From assembly GCA_001782825.1 (NCBI GenBank), contig MFPS01000006.1, positions 3,351 through 67,350 on the forward strand: a stretch of DNA of 64,000 nt, written 5' to 3'. The stretch's first letter is position 1. Each line of letters opens with the position of its first letter. Shown here one piece after another: positions 7,003 through 39,401 of the stretch. This stretch comes from Candidatus Magasanikbacteria bacterium RIFCSPHIGHO2_01_FULL_33_34. GTDB taxonomy: Bacteria > Patescibacteriota > Patescibacteriia > Magasanikbacterales > UBA922. The translations under genes were made by a program, and so were the position numbers. Below the pieces are notes generated by a model that had not been told where the DNA came from, made no database searches, and saw nothing but the letters and a program-made list of their open reading frames with translations.

Positions 7003-7602
7003 ATGCAAACAACAGAAATAAAAAACCAATACCTTATCCCTACTGTTATTGAAAAAACCAGTTATGGTGAAAGAGCGTATGATATATATTCTCGTTTACT
7101 CAAAGATAGAATTATTTTTCTTGGTAGCGCCATTGACGACGCTGTTGCCAATACTGTCATTGCTCAATTCTTGTTTTTGGAAAATCAAGATCCAGACAAA
7201 GATATAAAATTATATATCAATTCACCTGGAGGTTCAGTCACTTCTGGTATGGCCATATATGACACCATGCAATATATAAAACCAAATGTATCAACTATAT
7301 GTATTGGCATGGCCGCCAGTATGGCTTCAGTCCTTTTGACTGCCGGTGAAAAAGGCAAAAGATTTTGTCTACCAAATAGTGAAGTAATGATTCACCAAGT
7401 AATGGGCGGAACTGAAGGCCAAGCTTCCGACATAAAAATCCATGCCGAACGAATACTAAAAATGAAAGACAAACTTAATTCTATTTTAGCAAACCATACT
7501 GGACAAGATATAAAAACCATAGAAAAAGATTCTGATCGCGATAACTTTATGACAGCCGAAGAAGCGGTAAAATATGGATTGGTAGATAAAGTGATTAAAT
7601 AG
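7003..7602 (+). CDS. clpP: ATP-dependent Clp protease proteolytic subunit
   Basis: 199 aa. Contains the GMAASMAS active-site Ser region and the His/Asp context, with full-length similarity to ClpP. Confidence 0.95.
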
Positions 7603-7642
7603 CAGAGTAAGCAGAATAGGCAGATTAAGCAAATAAAATCAA

Positions 7643-7672
7643 AGACCCTCGACTAAGTCGAAGGTCTTTTAA
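7643..7672 (+). terminator. rho-independent terminator of clpP
   Basis: Stem agaccctcgac/gtcgaaggtct with loop taa, followed by tttt. Confidence 0.6.
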
Positions 7673-7679
7673 AATTTTT

Positions 7680-8090
7680 ATAGGAATGTTCTTCTAAAAT
7701 GCTGTACCCAAGAAGGTGAGTCGTAGGAATAGACGAGCCGTAGCCTGTGCAACCCTATAACGCACCCCCATGCTTGTCGTGGATACAGAACGTTATTTAT
7801 TTTTTCAAAATATTCAACGTTCTATATCCTCGTAAATCCAACCTTATGGTTGGGTAGTGGATACAGAGAAATACTTATTTTATGATAGAAACCATTAAAC
7901 AAATATTTCTCTAAATCCAAATTATATAGTTTTAAAAAGGTGTCTGGTAAGACACGGACATAAGGTTAGTTGTGGGGGGCAACTCCTTGAATATCCGTGT
8001 CTACCAGACAGAATCGAGTTAATTACTCAACACGACAAATGAATATACCATAAAAAATTCAACTTGTCAATAGCACCCTGTGGAAAAAAA
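7680..8090. ncRNA. GC-elevated, highly structured intergenic block between convergent genes; candidate non-coding RNA(s), family not recognised
   Basis: There is no ORF of 60 aa or more here. Local GC is clearly above the roughly 30% background. Nested helices include ggatacagaacgtt/aacgttctatatcc, ccaacc/ggttgg, and a 16-bp helix gtctggtaagacacgg/ccgtgtctaccagac enclosing a G-run. The direct repeat gtggatacaga occurs twice. Confidence 0.35.
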
Positions 8091-8113
8091 TAAAAAATAG
8101 GCTAAAATTAGCC
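8084..8113 (-). terminator. rho-independent terminator of the VanW-like gene
   Basis: Hairpin ggctaa/ttagcc, followed on the minus strand by tatttttt atttttt. Confidence 0.55.
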
Positions 8114-8144
8114 ATTTTTATAATAAAGTTATTTTGTAATGTCT

Positions 8145-10133
8145 TTATTCTACAATTATAAGTGAGTTTCCATCCCCATCATCTTCCAAAGGACACTCTG
8201 CCAAAGGCAAACCACTTTCATCAAAACAATTTTCAATCTTTTCTTCAACTCCTACCAAACAAATCTCTGGCAAAGGTCTATAATAACTCTCAAAAACTGT
8301 TTCTTCTACTTCTCCACTTGATAATTTTCTAACATACTTGAAACTTGCTTCTGCACCCTTAAACGCATGCTGACATTTTTCCGTACCTACAGGCAAACTG
8401 GTTGTTTCAATATATTGAGTTGGTCCAGTTGGTATCCACTTTTCTACCACTGGAGACTCATAATAACCACTCCGACCATCACTTGTTCCCCACAAAGTAA
8501 AGTATAATTTTTGTTCTTCCAAATCCATATAAGTCTGGATCAATATATGATTGCCAGTATCATTTTTAAATCTAAAATCAGGCGCTGGATCATAAAGCGT
8601 CGCATCAGTACCCGGCAAACCATTTTGTAAATCATTATAATAATTAACTACCAAAGAATGATTTCTTCTCTCTACAATAGGCATAGCAGAATTCATCGCC
8701 ATTCTAAACAATGTAGTTCCTATTTGACACAAACCACCACCAATCTCTGGCTTAATCTCGTCCCCCTTAATAACTAATTCTGGAAAATAACCGCCTTCTA
8801 TTGTATATGGTTTTGTATATTTAATTGCAGAAAACTCTTCATTTGGTTTCAACAATATCCCATTCAACTTGTCTACACCATTTTTTATATTTTTTATTCT
8901 ATTTTGTGGACTACCTGAAAAATCTGAAATGCCCACTCCCAAAATTTCTGTAATACCTAGATTATTTGCCTCACCAGTATTTACATTTGGCTCACTTTTT
9001 TTAGTTATCACTTGGACAATTTTAGCTATACCTTCATTATGAACACTCCTATCAATTATCGCTTGATTAATTGCCTCATAGGTCTTATCAATATCCAATT
9101 CAACTCCTGCGCGAGATCCTTGAAATTCCACTACCTTACCATCATCATCTACTTGAAACTTAGCATCTCTGGCATCTATATTAATTTTTGGTGAAACCAA
9201 TGTTTCTAAATAATCAACCACTAATTTTTTATTCAATCCAAAAGCCAAGTTTTTTTCTGATACATTGTGTACTTCAAGCCAATCAGAAATTTTACCAATA
9301 TCTATCAACCAATCATAGGCTACTTTAGTTTCTGGATTTTTGTATGTAATAGAAATATTACCATTATCAAACACACTTTCAAGTCTATTGGTTATATTAT
9401 TGACATCATTTTCTAAAACTGTCGGCAAAACTTCTTTATTATTTATATTTACATAAGGTACTTCCAATACTGACCATGCAAACTTCAACTTTGCAACTGT
9501 TTCTTCATACAAATATACATTTCCAACTGATGAGCTAGTTACTTCATAATCCAATGGATTTAAATTATTTATTTTTACAGAAGCATCCATTGGCATTACT
9601 TCATATTGGGCTAACTTTTCTGATATTTCATAAATAAGTTTATCCTTGTCTATAATTATATTTTTAAGTTTGATAGACGGTTTAGAAAAACGCATTTTTA
9701 CAAAATCAATTGACCGCAATAACAATCCATTGTCTTTTTTATAATTCATTATTCTTTCTACCTCACTATCAATATCAATATACATAAACTCAATAGCATT
9801 GTCTTCTGTAACAATAACTGGTTGTAACAAAAATTCTTTTTGCTGACCACTAAAATTAAAAGTAAAATGAAAACCTTCGCTTAATAATTTGTCACTCATT
9901 GAATGCAAAAAATTTTTAAGCTGACTCTCAGTCATACCACCAACAGAAACATTGCCAATATGCAATCCAGGAGCAACTTTATTGTTATAATCTTTTGCTT
10001 GTATCAAAATAACTGCCAACAAAAAACCAAACAATAAAAGCACTACTCCCAAAAATATAAAAACACGATGCCATTTAAATACCGCCCGCTCTTTCATAAA
10101 TTTTTTATCAAACAAATCAGCCATAATTAACAT
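8145..10133 (-). CDS. VanW family protein: N-terminal TM anchor, repeated extracytoplasmic domains, VanW domain, and a Cys-rich acidic C-terminal tail
   Basis: The TM segment is VFIFLGVVLLLFGFLLAVILI. The VanW-type core is GDEIKPEIGGGLCQIGTTLFRMAMNSAMPIVERRNHS. The C-terminal 60 aa contain 5 Cys and a DDGDGN motif. Confidence 0.75.
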   Translation of the reverse strand: MLIMADLFDKKFMKERAVFKWHRVFIFLGVVLLLFGFLLAVILIQAKDYNNKVAPGLHIGNVSVGGMTESQLKNFLHSMSDKLLSEGFHFTFNFSGQQKEFLLQPVIVTEDNAIEFMYIDIDSEVERIMNYKKDNGLLLRSIDFVKMRFSKPSIKLKNIIIDKDKLIYEISEKLAQYEVMPMDASVKINNLNPLDYEVTSSSVGNVYLYEETVAKLKFAWSVLEVPYVNINNKEVLPTVLENDVNNITNRLESVFDNGNISITYKNPETKVAYDWLIDIGKISDWLEVHNVSEKNLAFGLNKKLVVDYLETLVSPKINIDARDAKFQVDDDGKVVEFQGSRAGVELDIDKTYEAINQAIIDRSVHNEGIAKIVQVITKKSEPNVNTGEANNLGITEILGVGISDFSGSPQNRIKNIKNGVDKLNGILLKPNEEFSAIKYTKPYTIEGGYFPELVIKGDEIKPEIGGGLCQIGTTLFRMAMNSAMPIVERRNHSLVVNYYNDLQNGLPGTDATLYDPAPDFRFKNDTGNHILIQTYMDLEEQKLYFTLWGTSDGRSGYYESPVVEKWIPTGPTQYIETTSLPVGTEKCQHAFKGAEASFKYVRKLSSGEVEETVFESYYRPLPEICLVGVEEKIENCFDESGLPLAECPLEDDGDGNSLIIVE

Positions 10134-10963: not shown

Positions 10964-11050
10964 GGAGAGATGGCCGAGTGGTTTAAGGCAGCAGTTTACT
11001 AAACTGCCGGGCTCGCAAGGGCCTCTAGAGTTCGAATCTCTATCTCTCCG
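10964..11050 (+). tRNA. class-II tRNA (long variable arm, G73; Ser-type) with anticodon loop TTACTAA, so the apparent anticodon is ACU; no encoded CCA
   Basis: Acceptor GGAGAGA/TCTCTCC (7 bp), a 3-bp D stem GCC/GGC, anticodon stem GCAGT/ACTGC, long variable arm GGGCTCGCAAGGGCC, and T arm TAGAG-TTCGAAT-CTCTA. Confidence 0.75.
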
Positions 11051-11095
11051 CTCTCACCCGCCGAAGCTTTAGCGAAGGCAGGCAACCAACAATGT

Positions 11096-11491: not shown

Positions 11492-11579
<88 letters not shown>

Positions 11580-13957: not shown

Positions 13958-14047
13958 GGAAGGGTGGCAGAGCGGTCGAATGCGACGGTCTTGAAAACCG
14001 TTGAGCCTGAAAGGGTTCCGTGGGTTCGAATCCCACCCCTTCCGCCA
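13958..14047 (+). tRNA. tRNA-Ser (anticodon UGA), class II, CCA encoded
   Basis: Acceptor GGAAGGG/CCCTTCC, D stem GCA/TGC, anticodon stem-loop ACGGT-CTTGAAA-ACCGT, long variable arm, T arm GTGGG-TTCGAAT-CCCAC, G73, then CCA. Confidence 0.85.
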
Positions 14048-38103: not shown

Positions 38104-38162
38104 GAAAATAGAACTAAAATATTTTAGTAGTTTACCATAAAAACTATTATCTTTCTACAATA

Positions 38163-38286
38163 AAAAAACAAAGCCCCCATTCATGCGCATTGGTGTGTCC
38201 CAATGCGTTGAATGAAGGCTCTTCTCTATCATATGACAAAGACCCCCTTCTTTTTTTGAAAAAACTGCTTCCTCTTTTTCAAGAGG
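38163..38286 (-). terminator. tandem rho-independent terminators downstream of the lipoprotein gene
   Basis: Stem cctctt/aagagg (38271-38286) followed by a U-run on the minus strand. A second 15-bp stem cattcatgcgcattgg/ccaatgcgttgaatg (38178-38214) is followed by gggggctttgttttttt on the minus strand. Confidence 0.55.
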
Positions 38287-38334
38287 TGCGAACTTATTGA
38301 TTTCTGTCACAATCCCCCAAGATCATCCAACAAA

Positions 38335-39210
38335 TTAATTAGAACAAGTTTGCCCTGATTGATAAATACAATCAATTAATTGCCAACCAATAAGGTCATC
38401 CATCTCTACTTCTTGTACTTGATCTACCTCTACTCCAGAAAGATCAAAGACATCAGAACCCCTGACAAACGCCTTATTTACACTATGCAATCTATACTCT
38501 AGTCCAACTACAATTATAGAACTATCACCTTTCTTTAGGACATCTCCTACAGAAAGCAAAGTATTATTATTTACCTCTCTGCCATTCGGCAATTCACTAG
38601 ACAAATCCAATACACCAGAAGCATCCAAGACTGAACGAACAAATGAGTCAGACATTAGCTCACCCAAGCCCGTCCATCCTGTCCTAAACCGAGGGATAAA
38701 ATTACCTCGTACAGGGTACTCTTGTGTACCTCCATGAACCTCTAATTTAAAAGTTGGTATTGGATAACCACTGTTGTCAAATACTACTGAATATAGGCCA
38801 TCAGTAAATTCGGCGCCACGAGAAACGCCGACCAAAGTGGTATACACTCCTGCAGACCCATTTACAACAAATGAAATTGAAACCCCATTACTATCAAAGA
38901 TTGCTACATGATACTTACCAGGATCAAGTGGAATAGAAATACTTCCATCATAAAAGTATAGCATTCCCCAATCATTCTGACCTGGGTGTGCTTCTTTGTA
39001 TACTTTAGCTGTTATATTACTTTGCGGAGTAAAAAAAATATATTCACCTTCAGGTGGATTATAATCCGGATTATCCGAACCATCCGGATTAGAACTTACC
39101 GAACCATCGGGATTATTGGGATCATCAACCCCACCTTCGCCACTATGGCTACTACATCCTCCTAAGAGGAAAACAGAAACAAACAAAACACCAATCAATG
39201 ACGTTTTCAT
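38335..39210 (-). CDS. lipoprotein (start adjusted to MKTSLIGVLFVSVFLLGGCSS); beta-rich extracytoplasmic protein
   Basis: Lipobox LLGGC after a hydrophobic h-region, followed by a D/P/N/G-rich linker. The longer ORF begins with an improbable MGWSHSMFF extension. Confidence 0.6.
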   Translation of the reverse strand: MKTSLIGVLFVSVFLLGGCSSHSGEGGVDDPNNPDGSVSSNPDGSDNPDYNPPEGEYIFFTPQSNITAKVYKEAHPGQNDWGMLYFYDGSISIPLDPGKYHVAIFDSNGVSISFVVNGSAGVYTTLVGVSRGAEFTDGLYSVVFDNSGYPIPTFKLEVHGGTQEYPVRGNFIPRFRTGWTGLGELMSDSFVRSVLDASGVLDLSSELPNGREVNNNTLLSVGDVLKKGDSSIIVVGLEYRLHSVNKAFVRGSDVFDLSGVEVDQVQEVEMDDLIGWQLIDCIYQSGQTCSN

Positions 39211-39401
39211 TATCTTGCCTTTCTTTTGTGACAAAAAGAACATTGAATGAGACCATCCCATTCAGATGAATTAACCATACCATATTTTTTGCCTTTTGTC
39301 AACCTAAATTACTCATAAAATAGAAATTTTTACTATAAAAAACAACAAAAAAACTCTTTTTTTAGAGTTTTTTGTCAATATTTATCAAAAAAATATCAAA
39401 A

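What the first reader, a model, noticed from the sequence alone, without database searches (positions are those of the whole stretch)
7680..8090. GC-elevated, helix-dense 400-bp intergenic block between convergent genes: candidate novel ncRNA
The block has no ORF of 60 aa or more. Its GC is clearly above the genome background, as rRNA/ncRNA genes are in AT-rich genomes. It contains nested helices, including a 16-bp helix gtctggtaagacacgg/ccgtgtctaccagac that encloses a GGGGGG run, and a duplicated gtggatacaga box. It sits between the clpP terminator and the VanW-gene terminator, so it is not a 5' leader. I looked for RNase P (AGGAAAGUCCGGGC/ACAGAAnCCGGCUUA), tmRNA (tRNA-like end, tag ORF) and SRP (GGAAGCAGC) signatures and did not find them.
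Basis: partly seen in the sequence, partly recalled or inferred. Interest (0 to 1): 0.5.

Follow-up and report, generated by a model that had tools for sequence, protein, structure and literature searches.

The report
New structured RNA gene in Patescibacteria
The block is a real, separately transcribed, roughly 400-base non-coding RNA gene on the minus strand, and it belongs to an apparently undescribed RNA family kept at one chromosomal spot in at least 190 uncultured Patescibacteria (candidate phyla radiation, CPR) loci; its function is unknown.

Summary
The clpP/VanW gap (7603-8144) has no ORF over 36 aa and folds far better than shuffles, mainly on the MINUS strand (z -12.8, versus -7.1 on plus).

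It is an independent RNA gene:
- Promoter: TTGACA-17-TGgTATATT at 8070-8042.
- Predicted transcript: about 8035 to 7631.
- 3' end: the bidirectional clpP terminator.

No Rfam 15 family, tmRNA or tRNA matches, and seven text searches and look-ups found no description.

The conserved part is an 87-nt hairpin (7788-7702):
- P1, 9 bp.
- An invariant 10-nt 5' bulge, CGACAAGCAU, opposite a single U.
- P2, 57-61 nt long in 165 of 166 distinct cores, usually UNCG-capped.

Exact-pattern scans found this core in 117 species genomes (Magasanik-, Uhr-, Kerfeldbacteria and relatives) and 72 metagenome contigs. It occurs once per locus, nearly always between clpP and VanW, in either orientation. Covariation is strong: 94.5% of cells pair versus 42-52% in slid controls, and 16 of 23 pairs show compensatory changes.

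Upstream hairpins compete with P1 for that strand.

My inference is a trans-acting RNA that docks a highly conserved partner at the bulge, gated by a P1/anti-P1 switch.

The parts
8042..8070 (-). Promoter: -35 TTGACA (8070-8065), 17-nt spacer, extended -10 TGgTATATT (8050-8042). The predicted start is about 8035.
   Evidence: 11 of 12 consensus matches plus TG. The same TTGACA-17-TGnTAnnAT lies upstream of the core in 102 of 172 distinct loci, against 7 of 172 on the opposite strand. It aligns with L007, L008 and L009.
7631..8035 (-). Predicted primary transcript, about 405 nt.
   Evidence: Bounded by the promoter and the terminator. The minus-strand fold has z -12.8. Family-wide predicted lengths are 175-837 nt, median 312.
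8013..8031 (-). 5' terminal hairpin, GUUGAGU-AAUUA-ACUCGAU.
   Evidence: Folds. A short hairpin directly after the start is seen in most relatives.
7942..8009 (-). Hairpin H2. It has a C6 apical loop and is followed by ACCUUUUU (7941-7930).
   Evidence: -36.0 kcal/mol, no strand preference. Hairpins of the same type and position, with a C-rich tip in L007 and L008, occur in L007-L009, but without sequence similarity, so covariation is untestable.
7859..7918 (-). Module hairpin H3, GGAUUUAGAG...CUCUGUAUCC. Its 3' arm carries the first copy of the box (UCUGUAUCCAC).
   Evidence: -26.0 kcal/mol on minus against -13.6 on plus, with 4 G-U pairs. 83% identical to L007 and also present in L008.
7838..7853 (-). 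Short G+C hairpin, CCAACC-AUAA-GGUUGG, between the two modules.
   Evidence: Equivalent G+C hairpins lie between the modules in L007 and L009.
7779..7831 (-). Hairpin H5 (called HX here, the anti-P1 hairpin). Its 3' arm is the P1 5' strand, so H5 and P1 cannot form together.
   Evidence: -21.9 on minus against -16.9 on plus. An upstream partner for at least 6 of the 9 P1-5' bases is found in 87% of 98 distinct long-form sequences, and it covaries (U:A 48, C:G 38).
7698..7793 (-). Conserved core as matched by model R1.
   Evidence: 93.2 bits, E 3.5e-21, the only hit in the 64-kb window. The window sequence was itself among the 118 used to build R1. There was one hit in each of 99 of 100 sources.
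7780..7788 (-). P1 5' strand, CUGUAUCCA.
   Evidence: Pairs with 7702-7710. 5 of 8 pairs show compensatory change and 97.9% of cells are paired.
7770..7779 (-). Invariant 10-nt 5' bulge, CGACAAGCAU.
   Evidence: Identical in the 8 loci found through protein synteny alone. It was fixed by the pattern in the other loci. It is unpaired in every individual fold printed (60 of 118).
7712..7769 (-). P2 hairpin. Its base is GGGG/CUUC with tandem G-U pairs, and its tip is C-UACG-G (7743-7738).
   Evidence: 11 of 15 pairs show compensatory change. Length is 57-61 nt in 165 of 166 distinct cores, and the loop is UNCG in about 115.
7702..7711 (-). Single unpaired U (7711) and the P1 3' strand, UGGGUACAG.
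7681..7696 (-). Weak remnant of hairpin P3, which is G+C-rich in relatives, followed by an A/U-rich linker.
   Evidence: Relatives show a clear hairpin here, for example GGGGGAGUAACUUCCCUC. In the window it is barely stable (read from the sequence).
7631..7669 (-). Intrinsic terminator hairpin (7669-7641) and U-rich tail (7640-7631), shared with the convergent clpP gene.
   Evidence: 13-pair stem followed by GATTTTATTT on the minus strand. A hairpin plus U-run follows the core in 156 of 181 distinct loci, at a median of 66 nt after P1 (71 nt here).

Best explanation
The block is the gene for a free-standing structured RNA on the minus strand, about 405 nt long in this genome. It is transcribed from its own strong sigma-70-type promoter and stopped at the terminator it shares with clpP.

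It belongs to a family that I could not find in Rfam 15 or in the literature library. The family occurs in Magasanikbacteria, Uhrbacteria, Kerfeldbacteria and related Patescibacteria. There is one copy per locus, and it nearly always lies in the gap between the convergent clpP and VanW genes.

Shown: the working part is an 87-nt hairpin.
- A 9-bp helix (P1) and a roughly 28-bp helix of nearly fixed length (P2, UNCG-capped) are joined by an invariant 10-nt bulge, CGACAAGCAU, opposite a single U.
- The flanking pairs are invariant: CCA/UGG below the bulge and GGRG/CUUC, with tandem G-U pairs, above it.

Inferred:
- This bulge-plus-ruler hairpin is the docking site for a very slowly evolving cellular partner, most likely a protein or ribonucleoprotein machine. 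The RNA therefore acts in trans as a scaffold, decoy or regulator.
- In long forms such as this one, upstream hairpins (7779-7831, with a paralogous module at 7859-7918) pair with the same strand that P1 needs. The docking site can therefore exist in an 'off' (anti-P1) state or an 'on' (P1) state.
For: Gene status:
- Conserved promoter and terminator.
- Minus-strand folding excess and G-U asymmetry.
- No ORF.
- Homologous core in 8 of 8 syntenic relatives fetched through VanW or ClpP proteins.
- The core is present in 117 species genomes (118 stretches, one a chance hit) and 72 metagenome contigs. No viral contig carries it.
- One copy per locus.

Structure:
- 94.5% of cells are paired, against 42-52% for slid controls.
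- 354 double-change cells, against 55-111 in the controls.
- 16 of 23 pairs have compensatory changes.
- All 60 printed cores fold alone into P1, bulge, P2 and tetraloop.

Ruler: the P2 length is fixed within 4 nt, although the search pattern allowed 22 nt of freedom.

Switch:
- An upstream partner for the P1 5' strand is present in 87% of long forms and covaries in step with P1.
- Duplex energies are comparable (-10.7 against -14.1 kcal/mol on average; in the window -12.7 against -11.9).

Independence from neighbours: the gene is found in both orientations within the same gap.
Against: - No expression data were available, so transcription is inferred from sequence signals only.
- The partner is unknown, and nothing ties the RNA to any protein.
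- Invariance of the bulge is unbiased only for the 8 synteny-derived loci. In the other loci it was imposed by the search pattern.
- A 10-nt single strand could equally serve as a base-pairing seed.
- The anti-P1 hairpin is missing in the shortest forms (Uhrbacteria type) and in some long forms. It may therefore be a by-product of module duplication or a folding intermediate rather than a regulated switch.
- The window-specific hairpins H2 and H3 have too few alignable relatives for a covariation test.
Confidence: 0.6

Rival explanations
1. A base-pairing small RNA. The invariant bulge, which is extended when the anti-P1 hairpin forms and frees ACGACAAGCAUGG, is a seed that pairs with a conserved mRNA or stable RNA. 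The A/U-rich linker and terminator form the usual sRNA 3' module.
For: - The bulge is a conserved single-stranded stretch, and its complement is AUGCUUGUCG, which contains AUG.
- The 3' tail has a constant length of about 66 nt, with a hairpin, an A-rich linker and a terminator.
- H2 carries a C6 loop and pyrimidine-rich tails of the kind that pair with ribosome-binding sites (sequence).
Against: - No convincing complementary site exists in the 64-kb window.
- A seed locked between two stable helices is topologically awkward.
- The bulge shows no variation in the eight loci retrieved independently of the search pattern, whose VanW proteins are only 46-73% identical to the window's. Such invariance is unusual for an mRNA target site.
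- Complementarity of 9 of 11 bases to the universal 16S segment CAUGCAAGUCG (recalled from memory) is at chance level. My estimate is about 0.5 such matches expected in 4.4 kb of rRNA.
Confidence: 0.17
2. A lineage-specific analogue of 6S RNA. The hairpin mimics an open promoter: P2 stands for the upstream duplex, the 5' bulge for the template strand, and P1 (plus P0) for the downstream duplex. It sequesters RNA polymerase holoenzyme until a short product RNA is copied from the bulge.
For: - The promoter is strong and close to consensus.
- Short forms are one long irregular hairpin whose ends pair.
- The single strand is on the 5' side, as in 6S RNA (established knowledge of 6S RNA).
- The fixed P2 length resembles a spacing constraint between two contact sites.
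- An alternative pairing for the P1 strand recalls the 6S rearrangement on release.
Against: - The 'bubble' is one-sided (10 nt against 1 nt), whereas 6S RNAs have a two-sided central bubble.
- The Rfam 6S models, including lineage variants, do not match even at E<=10.
- Size varies through 5' insertions, which is not a 6S trait.
- I could not check whether these genomes already have a canonical 6S RNA.
Confidence: 0.12
3. A ligand- or ion-sensing RNA built like a riboswitch aptamer. P1 would be stabilised by the ligand and the anti-P1 hairpin would be the alternative state. The output would be the RNA's own activity, or read-through antisense transcription into the convergent neighbour.
For: - Conservation is concentrated in a junction or bulge while the helices covary, which is the typical aptamer signature.
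- Two mutually exclusive helices are both supported by covariation.
- The 3' end always faces a convergent gene.
Against: - No gene lies downstream on the same strand.
- The convergent neighbour differs with orientation (clpP or VanW), so there is no consistent antisense target.
- The shortest forms lack the alternative hairpin.
Confidence: 0.07
4. Not an RNA gene. The block would instead be a decayed protein gene, a mobile-element remnant, or DNA-level palindromes that serve only as terminators or insulators between convergent genes.
For: - In one relative (L007) an IS200-type transposase gene lies in the same gap.
- The block sits between two terminators.
- Hairpin H2 shows no strand preference.
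Against: - The IS insertion in L007 lies upstream of the RNA promoter and shares no sequence with the block.
- The core occurs once per locus, was absent from viral contigs, and a DNA search of the region against the plasmid collection found nothing.
- Substitutions are compensatory and G-U pairs are strand-specific.
- The promoter travels with the element when it is inverted.
Confidence: 0.03

Closest known systems
6S RNA (SsrS; Rfam RF00013 and lineage variants such as 6S-Flavo)
   Same: - Free-standing, strongly promoted small RNA.
- The short forms are one long irregular hairpin with paired ends.
- An internal single strand on the 5' side is flanked by conserved G-C-rich pairs.
- A second conformation is possible.
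   Different: - The internal loop is 10 nt opposite 1 nt, not a two-sided bubble.
- No covariance-model match.
- The bulge sequence is invariant, with no variation seen even in the eight loci found without the search pattern.
- There are large 5' insertions.
- Polymerase binding is untested.
Small SRP RNA (4.5S; Rfam RF00169) and Bacillus-type SRP RNA
   Same: - Same overall topology: a hairpin of about 110-130 nt carrying an asymmetric internal loop whose long side is 5'.
- Larger versions add hairpins at the 5' end.
- Single copy.
   Different: - It lacks the GNAR tetraloop and the symmetric loop (GGAA...AGCA) that define the Ffh-binding helix 8.
- The tip here is UNCG, and the conserved loop lies about 28 bp from the tip.
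- No model match.
Orphan bacterial structured RNAs of unknown function (for example raiA motif RNA and OLE RNA)
   Same: - Found by the same signature: a long G+C-enriched spacer, covariation, and its own promoter and terminator.
- Restricted to one lineage.
- Function not deducible from the neighbours.
   Different: - Unrelated sequence and fold.
- A much simpler core (one hairpin).
- Strict positional conservation between clpP and VanW.
- Modular repeats with competing helices.
Protein-sponge RNAs with repeated modules (CsrB/RsmZ type)
   Same: Related species carry variable numbers of a repeated hairpin module, one to three copies in front of the core.
   Different: The repeated units are about 60-nt hairpins sharing an 8-9-nt stem base, not GGA loops. 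Only the last unit carries the invariant bulge.

Membership tests
Any Rfam 15 family | Covariance-model score at or above the family's gathering threshold. | tested here: not met
   Whole window: only three tRNAs. Region 7550-8200 at E<=10: only chance hits to miRNA, snoRNA and sRNA models, all far below threshold, and none on the core. Seven relatives: tRNAs only. A short-form relative, L049, at E<=10: nothing relevant.
6S RNA | Long hairpin with the 5' and 3' ends paired in a closing stem. | tested here: inconclusive
   Met in short forms (L049, L024, L075). In the window form the 5' end carries extra hairpins and is not paired with the 3' end.
6S RNA | Large two-sided central bubble that mimics an open promoter. 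| tested here: not met
   The internal loop is 10 nt on the 5' side and 1 nt on the 3' side in all 118 aligned sequences.
6S RNA | Binds sigma-70 holoenzyme and templates a product RNA. | not testable with these tools
   This needs biochemistry.
SRP RNA | Helix 8 with a GNAR tetraloop plus the conserved symmetric and asymmetric loops. | tested here: not met
   The tip is UNCG in about 115 of 166 cores. There is no symmetric loop, only 1x1 mismatches in P2. No RF00169 or RF01854 hit.
tmRNA | tRNA-like ends and a tag reading frame. | tested here: not met
   ARAGORN finds no tmRNA in the window. There is no cmscan hit. The short forms of about 130-175 nt are too small.
RNase P RNA | P4 pseudoknot and the conserved regions CR-I to CR-V. 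| tested here: not met
   No hit to the RNase P models at E<=10. The family's short forms are a single hairpin.
Riboswitch or other 5' leader | Lies upstream of, and on the same strand as, the gene it controls. | tested here: not met
   The element is followed by a terminator and then a convergent gene, in both orientations.
IS200/IS605 or MITE-type mobile-element remnant | Multiple dispersed copies, terminal repeats, or a link to a transposase. | tested here: not met
   One copy in the window and one per locus. The chromosomal position is fixed. The only transposase seen (L007) is an unrelated insertion upstream of the promoter.
New family defined here (clpP-VanW gap RNA) | P1, then the CGACAAGCAU bulge opposite one U, then a 57-61-nt P2 hairpin, with its own promoter and terminator. 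| tested here: met
   The window matches model R1 at 93.2 bits (the window sequence was part of the model's training alignment) and has all of these parts.

The most novel reading that the evidence does not exclude
The RNA is the core of a previously unknown, lineage-wide ribonucleoprotein or regulatory device of ABY1-type Patescibacteria. One possibility is a one-sided-bubble functional analogue of 6S RNA. Another is a bistable trans-acting sensor RNA whose invariant bulge engages a core machine (RNA polymerase or the ribosome), with the anti-P1 hairpins acting as a built-in on/off gate.
Probability: 0.2. Interest if true: 0.8.

Novelty: new member of a known kind. Interest (0 to 1): 0.62.

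Why it matters
Patescibacteria (CPR) make up a large share of bacterial diversity. They have tiny genomes, and almost nothing is known about their RNA biology beyond rRNA, tRNA and the universal RNAs. This RNA has four unusual properties together:
- It is single-copy.
- It has a strong, near-consensus sigma-70 promoter.
- It stays at one chromosomal address across Magasanikbacteria, Uhrbacteria, Kerfeldbacteria and related Patescibacteria.
- Its 10-nt loop shows no variation, even in the eight loci retrieved without the search pattern.

Such an RNA is likely to do something central in these organisms. The family provides a clean alignment of 166 distinct cores with strong covariation. It also offers a simple 87-nt hairpin that could be synthesised for pull-downs, probing and structure work. 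A naturally bistable design (P1 versus anti-P1) makes the mechanism directly testable. If the partner turned out to be RNA polymerase or the ribosome, this would be a new solution to a known regulatory problem.

Tried and rejected
(1) Known RNA families. I ran cmscan on the window, on the region at E<=10, on seven relatives and on a short-form relative. Nothing matched. ARAGORN found no tmRNA.

(2) Plasmid or phage origin. A blastn search against plasmids found nothing. An exact-pattern scan of viral contigs found nothing.

(3) Pseudogene or small protein. In the window the core reads as a 25-codon ORF from the AUG of AAGCAUGG. That frame is stopped after 4 codons in relatives such as L083, and substitutions are compensatory, so I rejected it (read).

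(4) Intramolecular partner for the bulge. A 5'-terminal GUCGUG could pair with CACGAC in the window, L012 and L049. In most relatives the 5' end reads GUUAY or GUCAC and forms a local hairpin instead, so I rejected it.

(5) Target search for the bulge complement in the window. There was only the self-match plus one 3-mismatch site at chance level.

(6) Resemblances to the 16S rRNA 5' and 3' regions and to the anti-Shine-Dalgarno sequence. I compared these from memory only, and they were at chance level or in permuted order. I did not pursue them.

(7) Covariation test for the window-specific hairpins H2 and H3. Only L007 and L008 are alignable, which is too few.

(8) My first genome pattern ended in TCTTCTTGG and so excluded the window's own CCTTCTTGG variant. 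I covered that variant afterwards with the metagenome scan. One genome hit (L092, Microthrix) was a chance match, and the model does not hit it.

(9) Literature. Five full-text searches, including the motif sequence itself, and term look-ups in two Breaker-lab genome surveys gave nothing.

Full report
**1. What is in the window**

The 542-bp gap 7603-8144 lies between two convergent genes. One is clpP (7003-7602, +; Pfam CLP_protease, E 1e-87). The other is a 662-aa VanW/PG_binding_4 gene (8145-10133, -). The longest ORFs inside the gap are 36 and 32 aa.

- The 15/16-bp helix 7941-7956 / 7996-8010 around a G6 run.
- The duplicated box GTGGATACAGA at 7779-7789 and 7857-7867.
- The flanking terminator hairpins at 7641-7669 and 8100-8113.

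GC enrichment of the block is slight: 0.367 against 0.334 for the window. The 96-nt core at 7698-7793 reaches 0.52.

Folding is far beyond chance and asymmetric between the strands. It is -122.3 kcal/mol (z -7.1) on the plus strand and -150.9 kcal/mol (z -12.8) on the minus strand. Taken hairpin by hairpin, the minus strand wins because of G-U pairs:

| Element | Minus strand (kcal/mol) | Plus strand (kcal/mol) |
|---|---|---|
| H3 | -26.0 | -13.6 |
| H5 | -21.9 | -16.9 |
| Core | -32.7 | -22.1 |

**2. It is a transcription unit on the minus strand**

A near-consensus promoter sits at 8070-8042 on the minus strand (TTGACA, 17 nt, TGgTATATT; 11 of 12 matches). The clpP terminator hairpin is followed by a U-rich run on the minus strand as well. 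This predicts an RNA of about 405 nt, from about 8035 to about 7631. No Rfam 15 family matches, even at E<=10, and ARAGORN finds no tmRNA.

**3. Relatives**

The window is identical to contig MFPW01000009.1 of assembly GCA_001782875.1. VanW homologues are labelled Candidatus Magasanikbacteria.

I fetched syntenic loci through VanW proteins that are 46-73% identical to the window's (L007-L013). All seven of them, like the window, have the same layout in or next to the same gap:
- the same promoter;
- a variable set of hairpins;
- a highly conserved segment, CUGUAUCC-ACGACAAGCAU-GGGGRUG...CAYCUUCU-U-GGRURCAG;
- a terminator.

Exact-pattern scans for this segment gave these results:
- Genomes: 118 stretches in the one-genome-per-species collection, named Magasanik-, Uhr-, Kerfeld- or Parcubacteria/Patescibacteria. 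Many third-party-annotated (TPA) metagenome-assembled genomes (MAGs) are labelled 'uncultured Gammaproteobacteria' yet carry the same CPR gene neighbourhood. One hit is a chance match.
- Metagenome contigs: 72, for the window's sequence variant.
- Viral contigs: none.

Together this makes 166 distinct core sequences. A covariance model built from 118 of them hits the window once (7793-7698, minus strand, 93.2 bits). It hits each related locus exactly once.

**4. Position and orientation**

ClpP and VanW flank the element in almost every locus long enough to tell. The element lies on the VanW strand in about a third of the species genomes, as it does here, and on the clpP strand in about two thirds. 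The metagenome set has both orientations as well.

Close relatives with nearly the same core (L049 and L116) have opposite orientations. The small gene has therefore been inverted in place more than once, taking its promoter with it. This argues for an independent gene rather than a UTR of either neighbour.

**5. Promoter and terminator across the family**

- The motif TTGAC-N15-19-TRNWWT is found within 400 nt upstream in 102 of 172 distinct loci. On the opposite strand it is found in 7 of 172.
- Among those 102, the spacer is 17 nt in 85 and the extended -10 TG is present in 75.
- A hairpin plus U-run follows in 156 of 181 loci. It ends a median of 66 nt (IQR 60-71) after the core; here the distance is 71 nt.
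- Predicted RNA lengths run from 175 to 837 nt, with a median of 312.
- The shortest forms (Uhrbacteria type) are essentially one long hairpin whose base is followed by a U-run.

**6. Structure of the core**

RNAalifold on a MAFFT alignment, made without any structure input, gives this arrangement:
- P1, 9 bp including the invariant CCA/UGG.
- An unpaired CGACAAGCAU opposite a single U.
- P2, which starts with the invariant pairs G-C, G-U, R-U and G-C.

Pair counts support it:

| Measure | Proposed structure | Controls |
|---|---|---|
| Cells forming a standard pair | 94.5% | 42-52% with the 3' partners slid by 1-3 columns |
| Cells changed on both sides | 354 | 55-111 |
| Column shuffles reaching the observed value | 0 of 500 | not applicable |

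In addition, 16 of 23 pairs show compensatory change. Examples are C-G 53 against U-A 53 at one P1 pair, and G-C 76, A-U 26 and U-A 12 at one P2 pair. Each sequence folded alone gives the same shape.

P2 is 57-61 nt long in 165 of 166 cores, although the pattern allowed 22 nt of freedom. Its tip is a UNCG tetraloop in about 115 cores. The bulge is identical in the eight loci that were found without using it. In the remaining loci it was part of the search pattern, so its invariance there says nothing.

**7.

On the minus strand the box reads UCUGUAUCCAC. The copy at 7789-7779 is the P1 5' strand. The copy at 7867-7857 is the 3' arm of hairpin H3.

In the window the RNA is built from these parts:

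| Element | Coordinates (minus strand) |
|---|---|
| 5' hairpin | 8031-8013 |
| H2 | 8009-7942 |
| H3 | 7918-7859 |
| Short G+C hairpin | 7853-7838 |
| H5 | 7831-7779 |
| Core | 7788-7702 |
| Weak P3 | 7696-7681 |
| Terminator | 7669-7641 |

H5 uses the P1 5' strand as its own 3' arm, so H5 and P1 cannot form together.

This competition is a family trait of the long forms:
- In 87% of 98 distinct upstream segments, at least 6 of the 9 P1-5' bases pair with an upstream partner about 28-46 nt away.
- That partner covaries in step with P1. At position 2 the counts are U:A 48 and C:G 38 in the upstream helix, and U:A 42 and C:G 43 in P1.
- Mean duplex energies are -10.7 kcal/mol for the upstream helix (-7.0 after shuffling) and -14.1 for P1. 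In the window they are -12.7 and -11.9.

The shortest forms have no such competitor. They extend P1 by a further helix instead.

**8. What it most likely does**

Shown: this is a single-copy, independently promoted and terminated, strongly covarying RNA with an invariant asymmetric loop and a length-constrained helix.

Inferred: the loop, together with the adjacent tandem G-U pairs and the fixed distance to the tip, looks like a docking site for a very slowly evolving partner. A loop with no variation across relatives this diverged fits a protein or RNP machine better than an mRNA site. The competing upstream hairpins would make that site conditional.

I cannot name the partner. Four rivals remain, set out in the rival explanations section of this report:
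- a base-pairing sRNA;
- a 6S-like polymerase decoy, where the topology fits but the bubble is one-sided;
- a ligand-sensing RNA;
- a non-RNA element.

**9. Comparison with known families**

The RNA shares its topology with 4.5S/SRP RNA and with 6S RNA, but it fails a defining feature of each: there is no GNAR tetraloop or symmetric loop, and no two-sided bubble. It matches none of the 4227 Rfam models. It is not a riboswitch, because no gene lies downstream on the same strand. It is not a mobile element, because it is single-copy at a fixed position.

Full-text searches found nothing. They covered the motif sequence itself, the taxa combined with RNA terms, and two genome-wide ncRNA surveys.

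I therefore file it as a new family of the known general kind 'orphan structured bacterial ncRNA'.

**10. Limits**

- There are no expression data.
- The collections were searched with exact patterns, so the true phylogenetic range and any variation in the bulge are not known.
- The window-specific hairpins H2 and H3 rest on thermodynamics and on module-type conservation in L007-L009 only.
- E-values from model R1 are rough because its calibration was shortened.

Noticed in passing
Loci L014-L131 and L132-L203 compared with the window (for example L049 against L116): The RNA gene occupies the same clpP/VanW gap in both orientations. It is on the clpP strand in about two thirds of species genomes and on the VanW strand in about one third. 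Near-identical cores occur in opposite orientations, so repeated in-place inversion of a gene of a few hundred bases must have occurred. No flanking inverted repeats were identified.
   Followed up: partly
L007:3222-4040 (GCA_030690205.1): An IS200/IS605-type Y1 transposase gene (184 aa) is inserted between the VanW stop codon and the VanW terminator, upstream of the RNA promoter. It is flanked by repeated hairpin-forming units of about 75 nt (CCAGCAGTAAGGGAACA...). It is unrelated in sequence to the RNA.
   Followed up: partly
Window 10964-11051: ARAGORN calls a tRNA-Ser with anticodon ACU (anticodon loop UUACUAA), next to tRNA-Ser(GCU) at 11492-11579 and tRNA-Ser(UGA) at 13958-14047. An unmodified A34 outside tRNA-Arg is unusual in bacteria.
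   Followed up: no
Loci L014-L131 (record titles): Dozens of third-party (TPA) MAG records titled 'uncultured Gammaproteobacteria bacterium' carry the Patescibacteria-type SMC-DHH-ClpP-RNA-VanW-Hsp20 block. One record is titled Candidatus Udaeobacter. The organism labels of these records are probably wrong.
   Followed up: no
Window 7930-7950: Hairpin H2 is followed by ACCUUUUU, a terminator-like site on the minus strand. A second promoter-like site (TTACCA-18-TATAAT, 10 of 12 matches) ends at 7921. The first roughly 100 nt (5' hairpin plus H2, with its C6 loop) might therefore be released as a separate small RNA, and the modules plus core might have a second start. L007 has a U-run at the equivalent place but no -10 box.
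   Followed up: partly
Window 38155-38334: A spacer with GC 0.40 between two minus-strand genes folds well on the minus strand (z -5.6). It is dominated by a long hairpin followed by U7, which is most simply the terminator of the gene at 38335-39261.
   Followed up: partly
Window 52295-53077 and 1-935: These are long stretches (783 and 935 bp) without an ORF of 120 aa or more and with no Rfam hit. I did not examine them.
   Followed up: no
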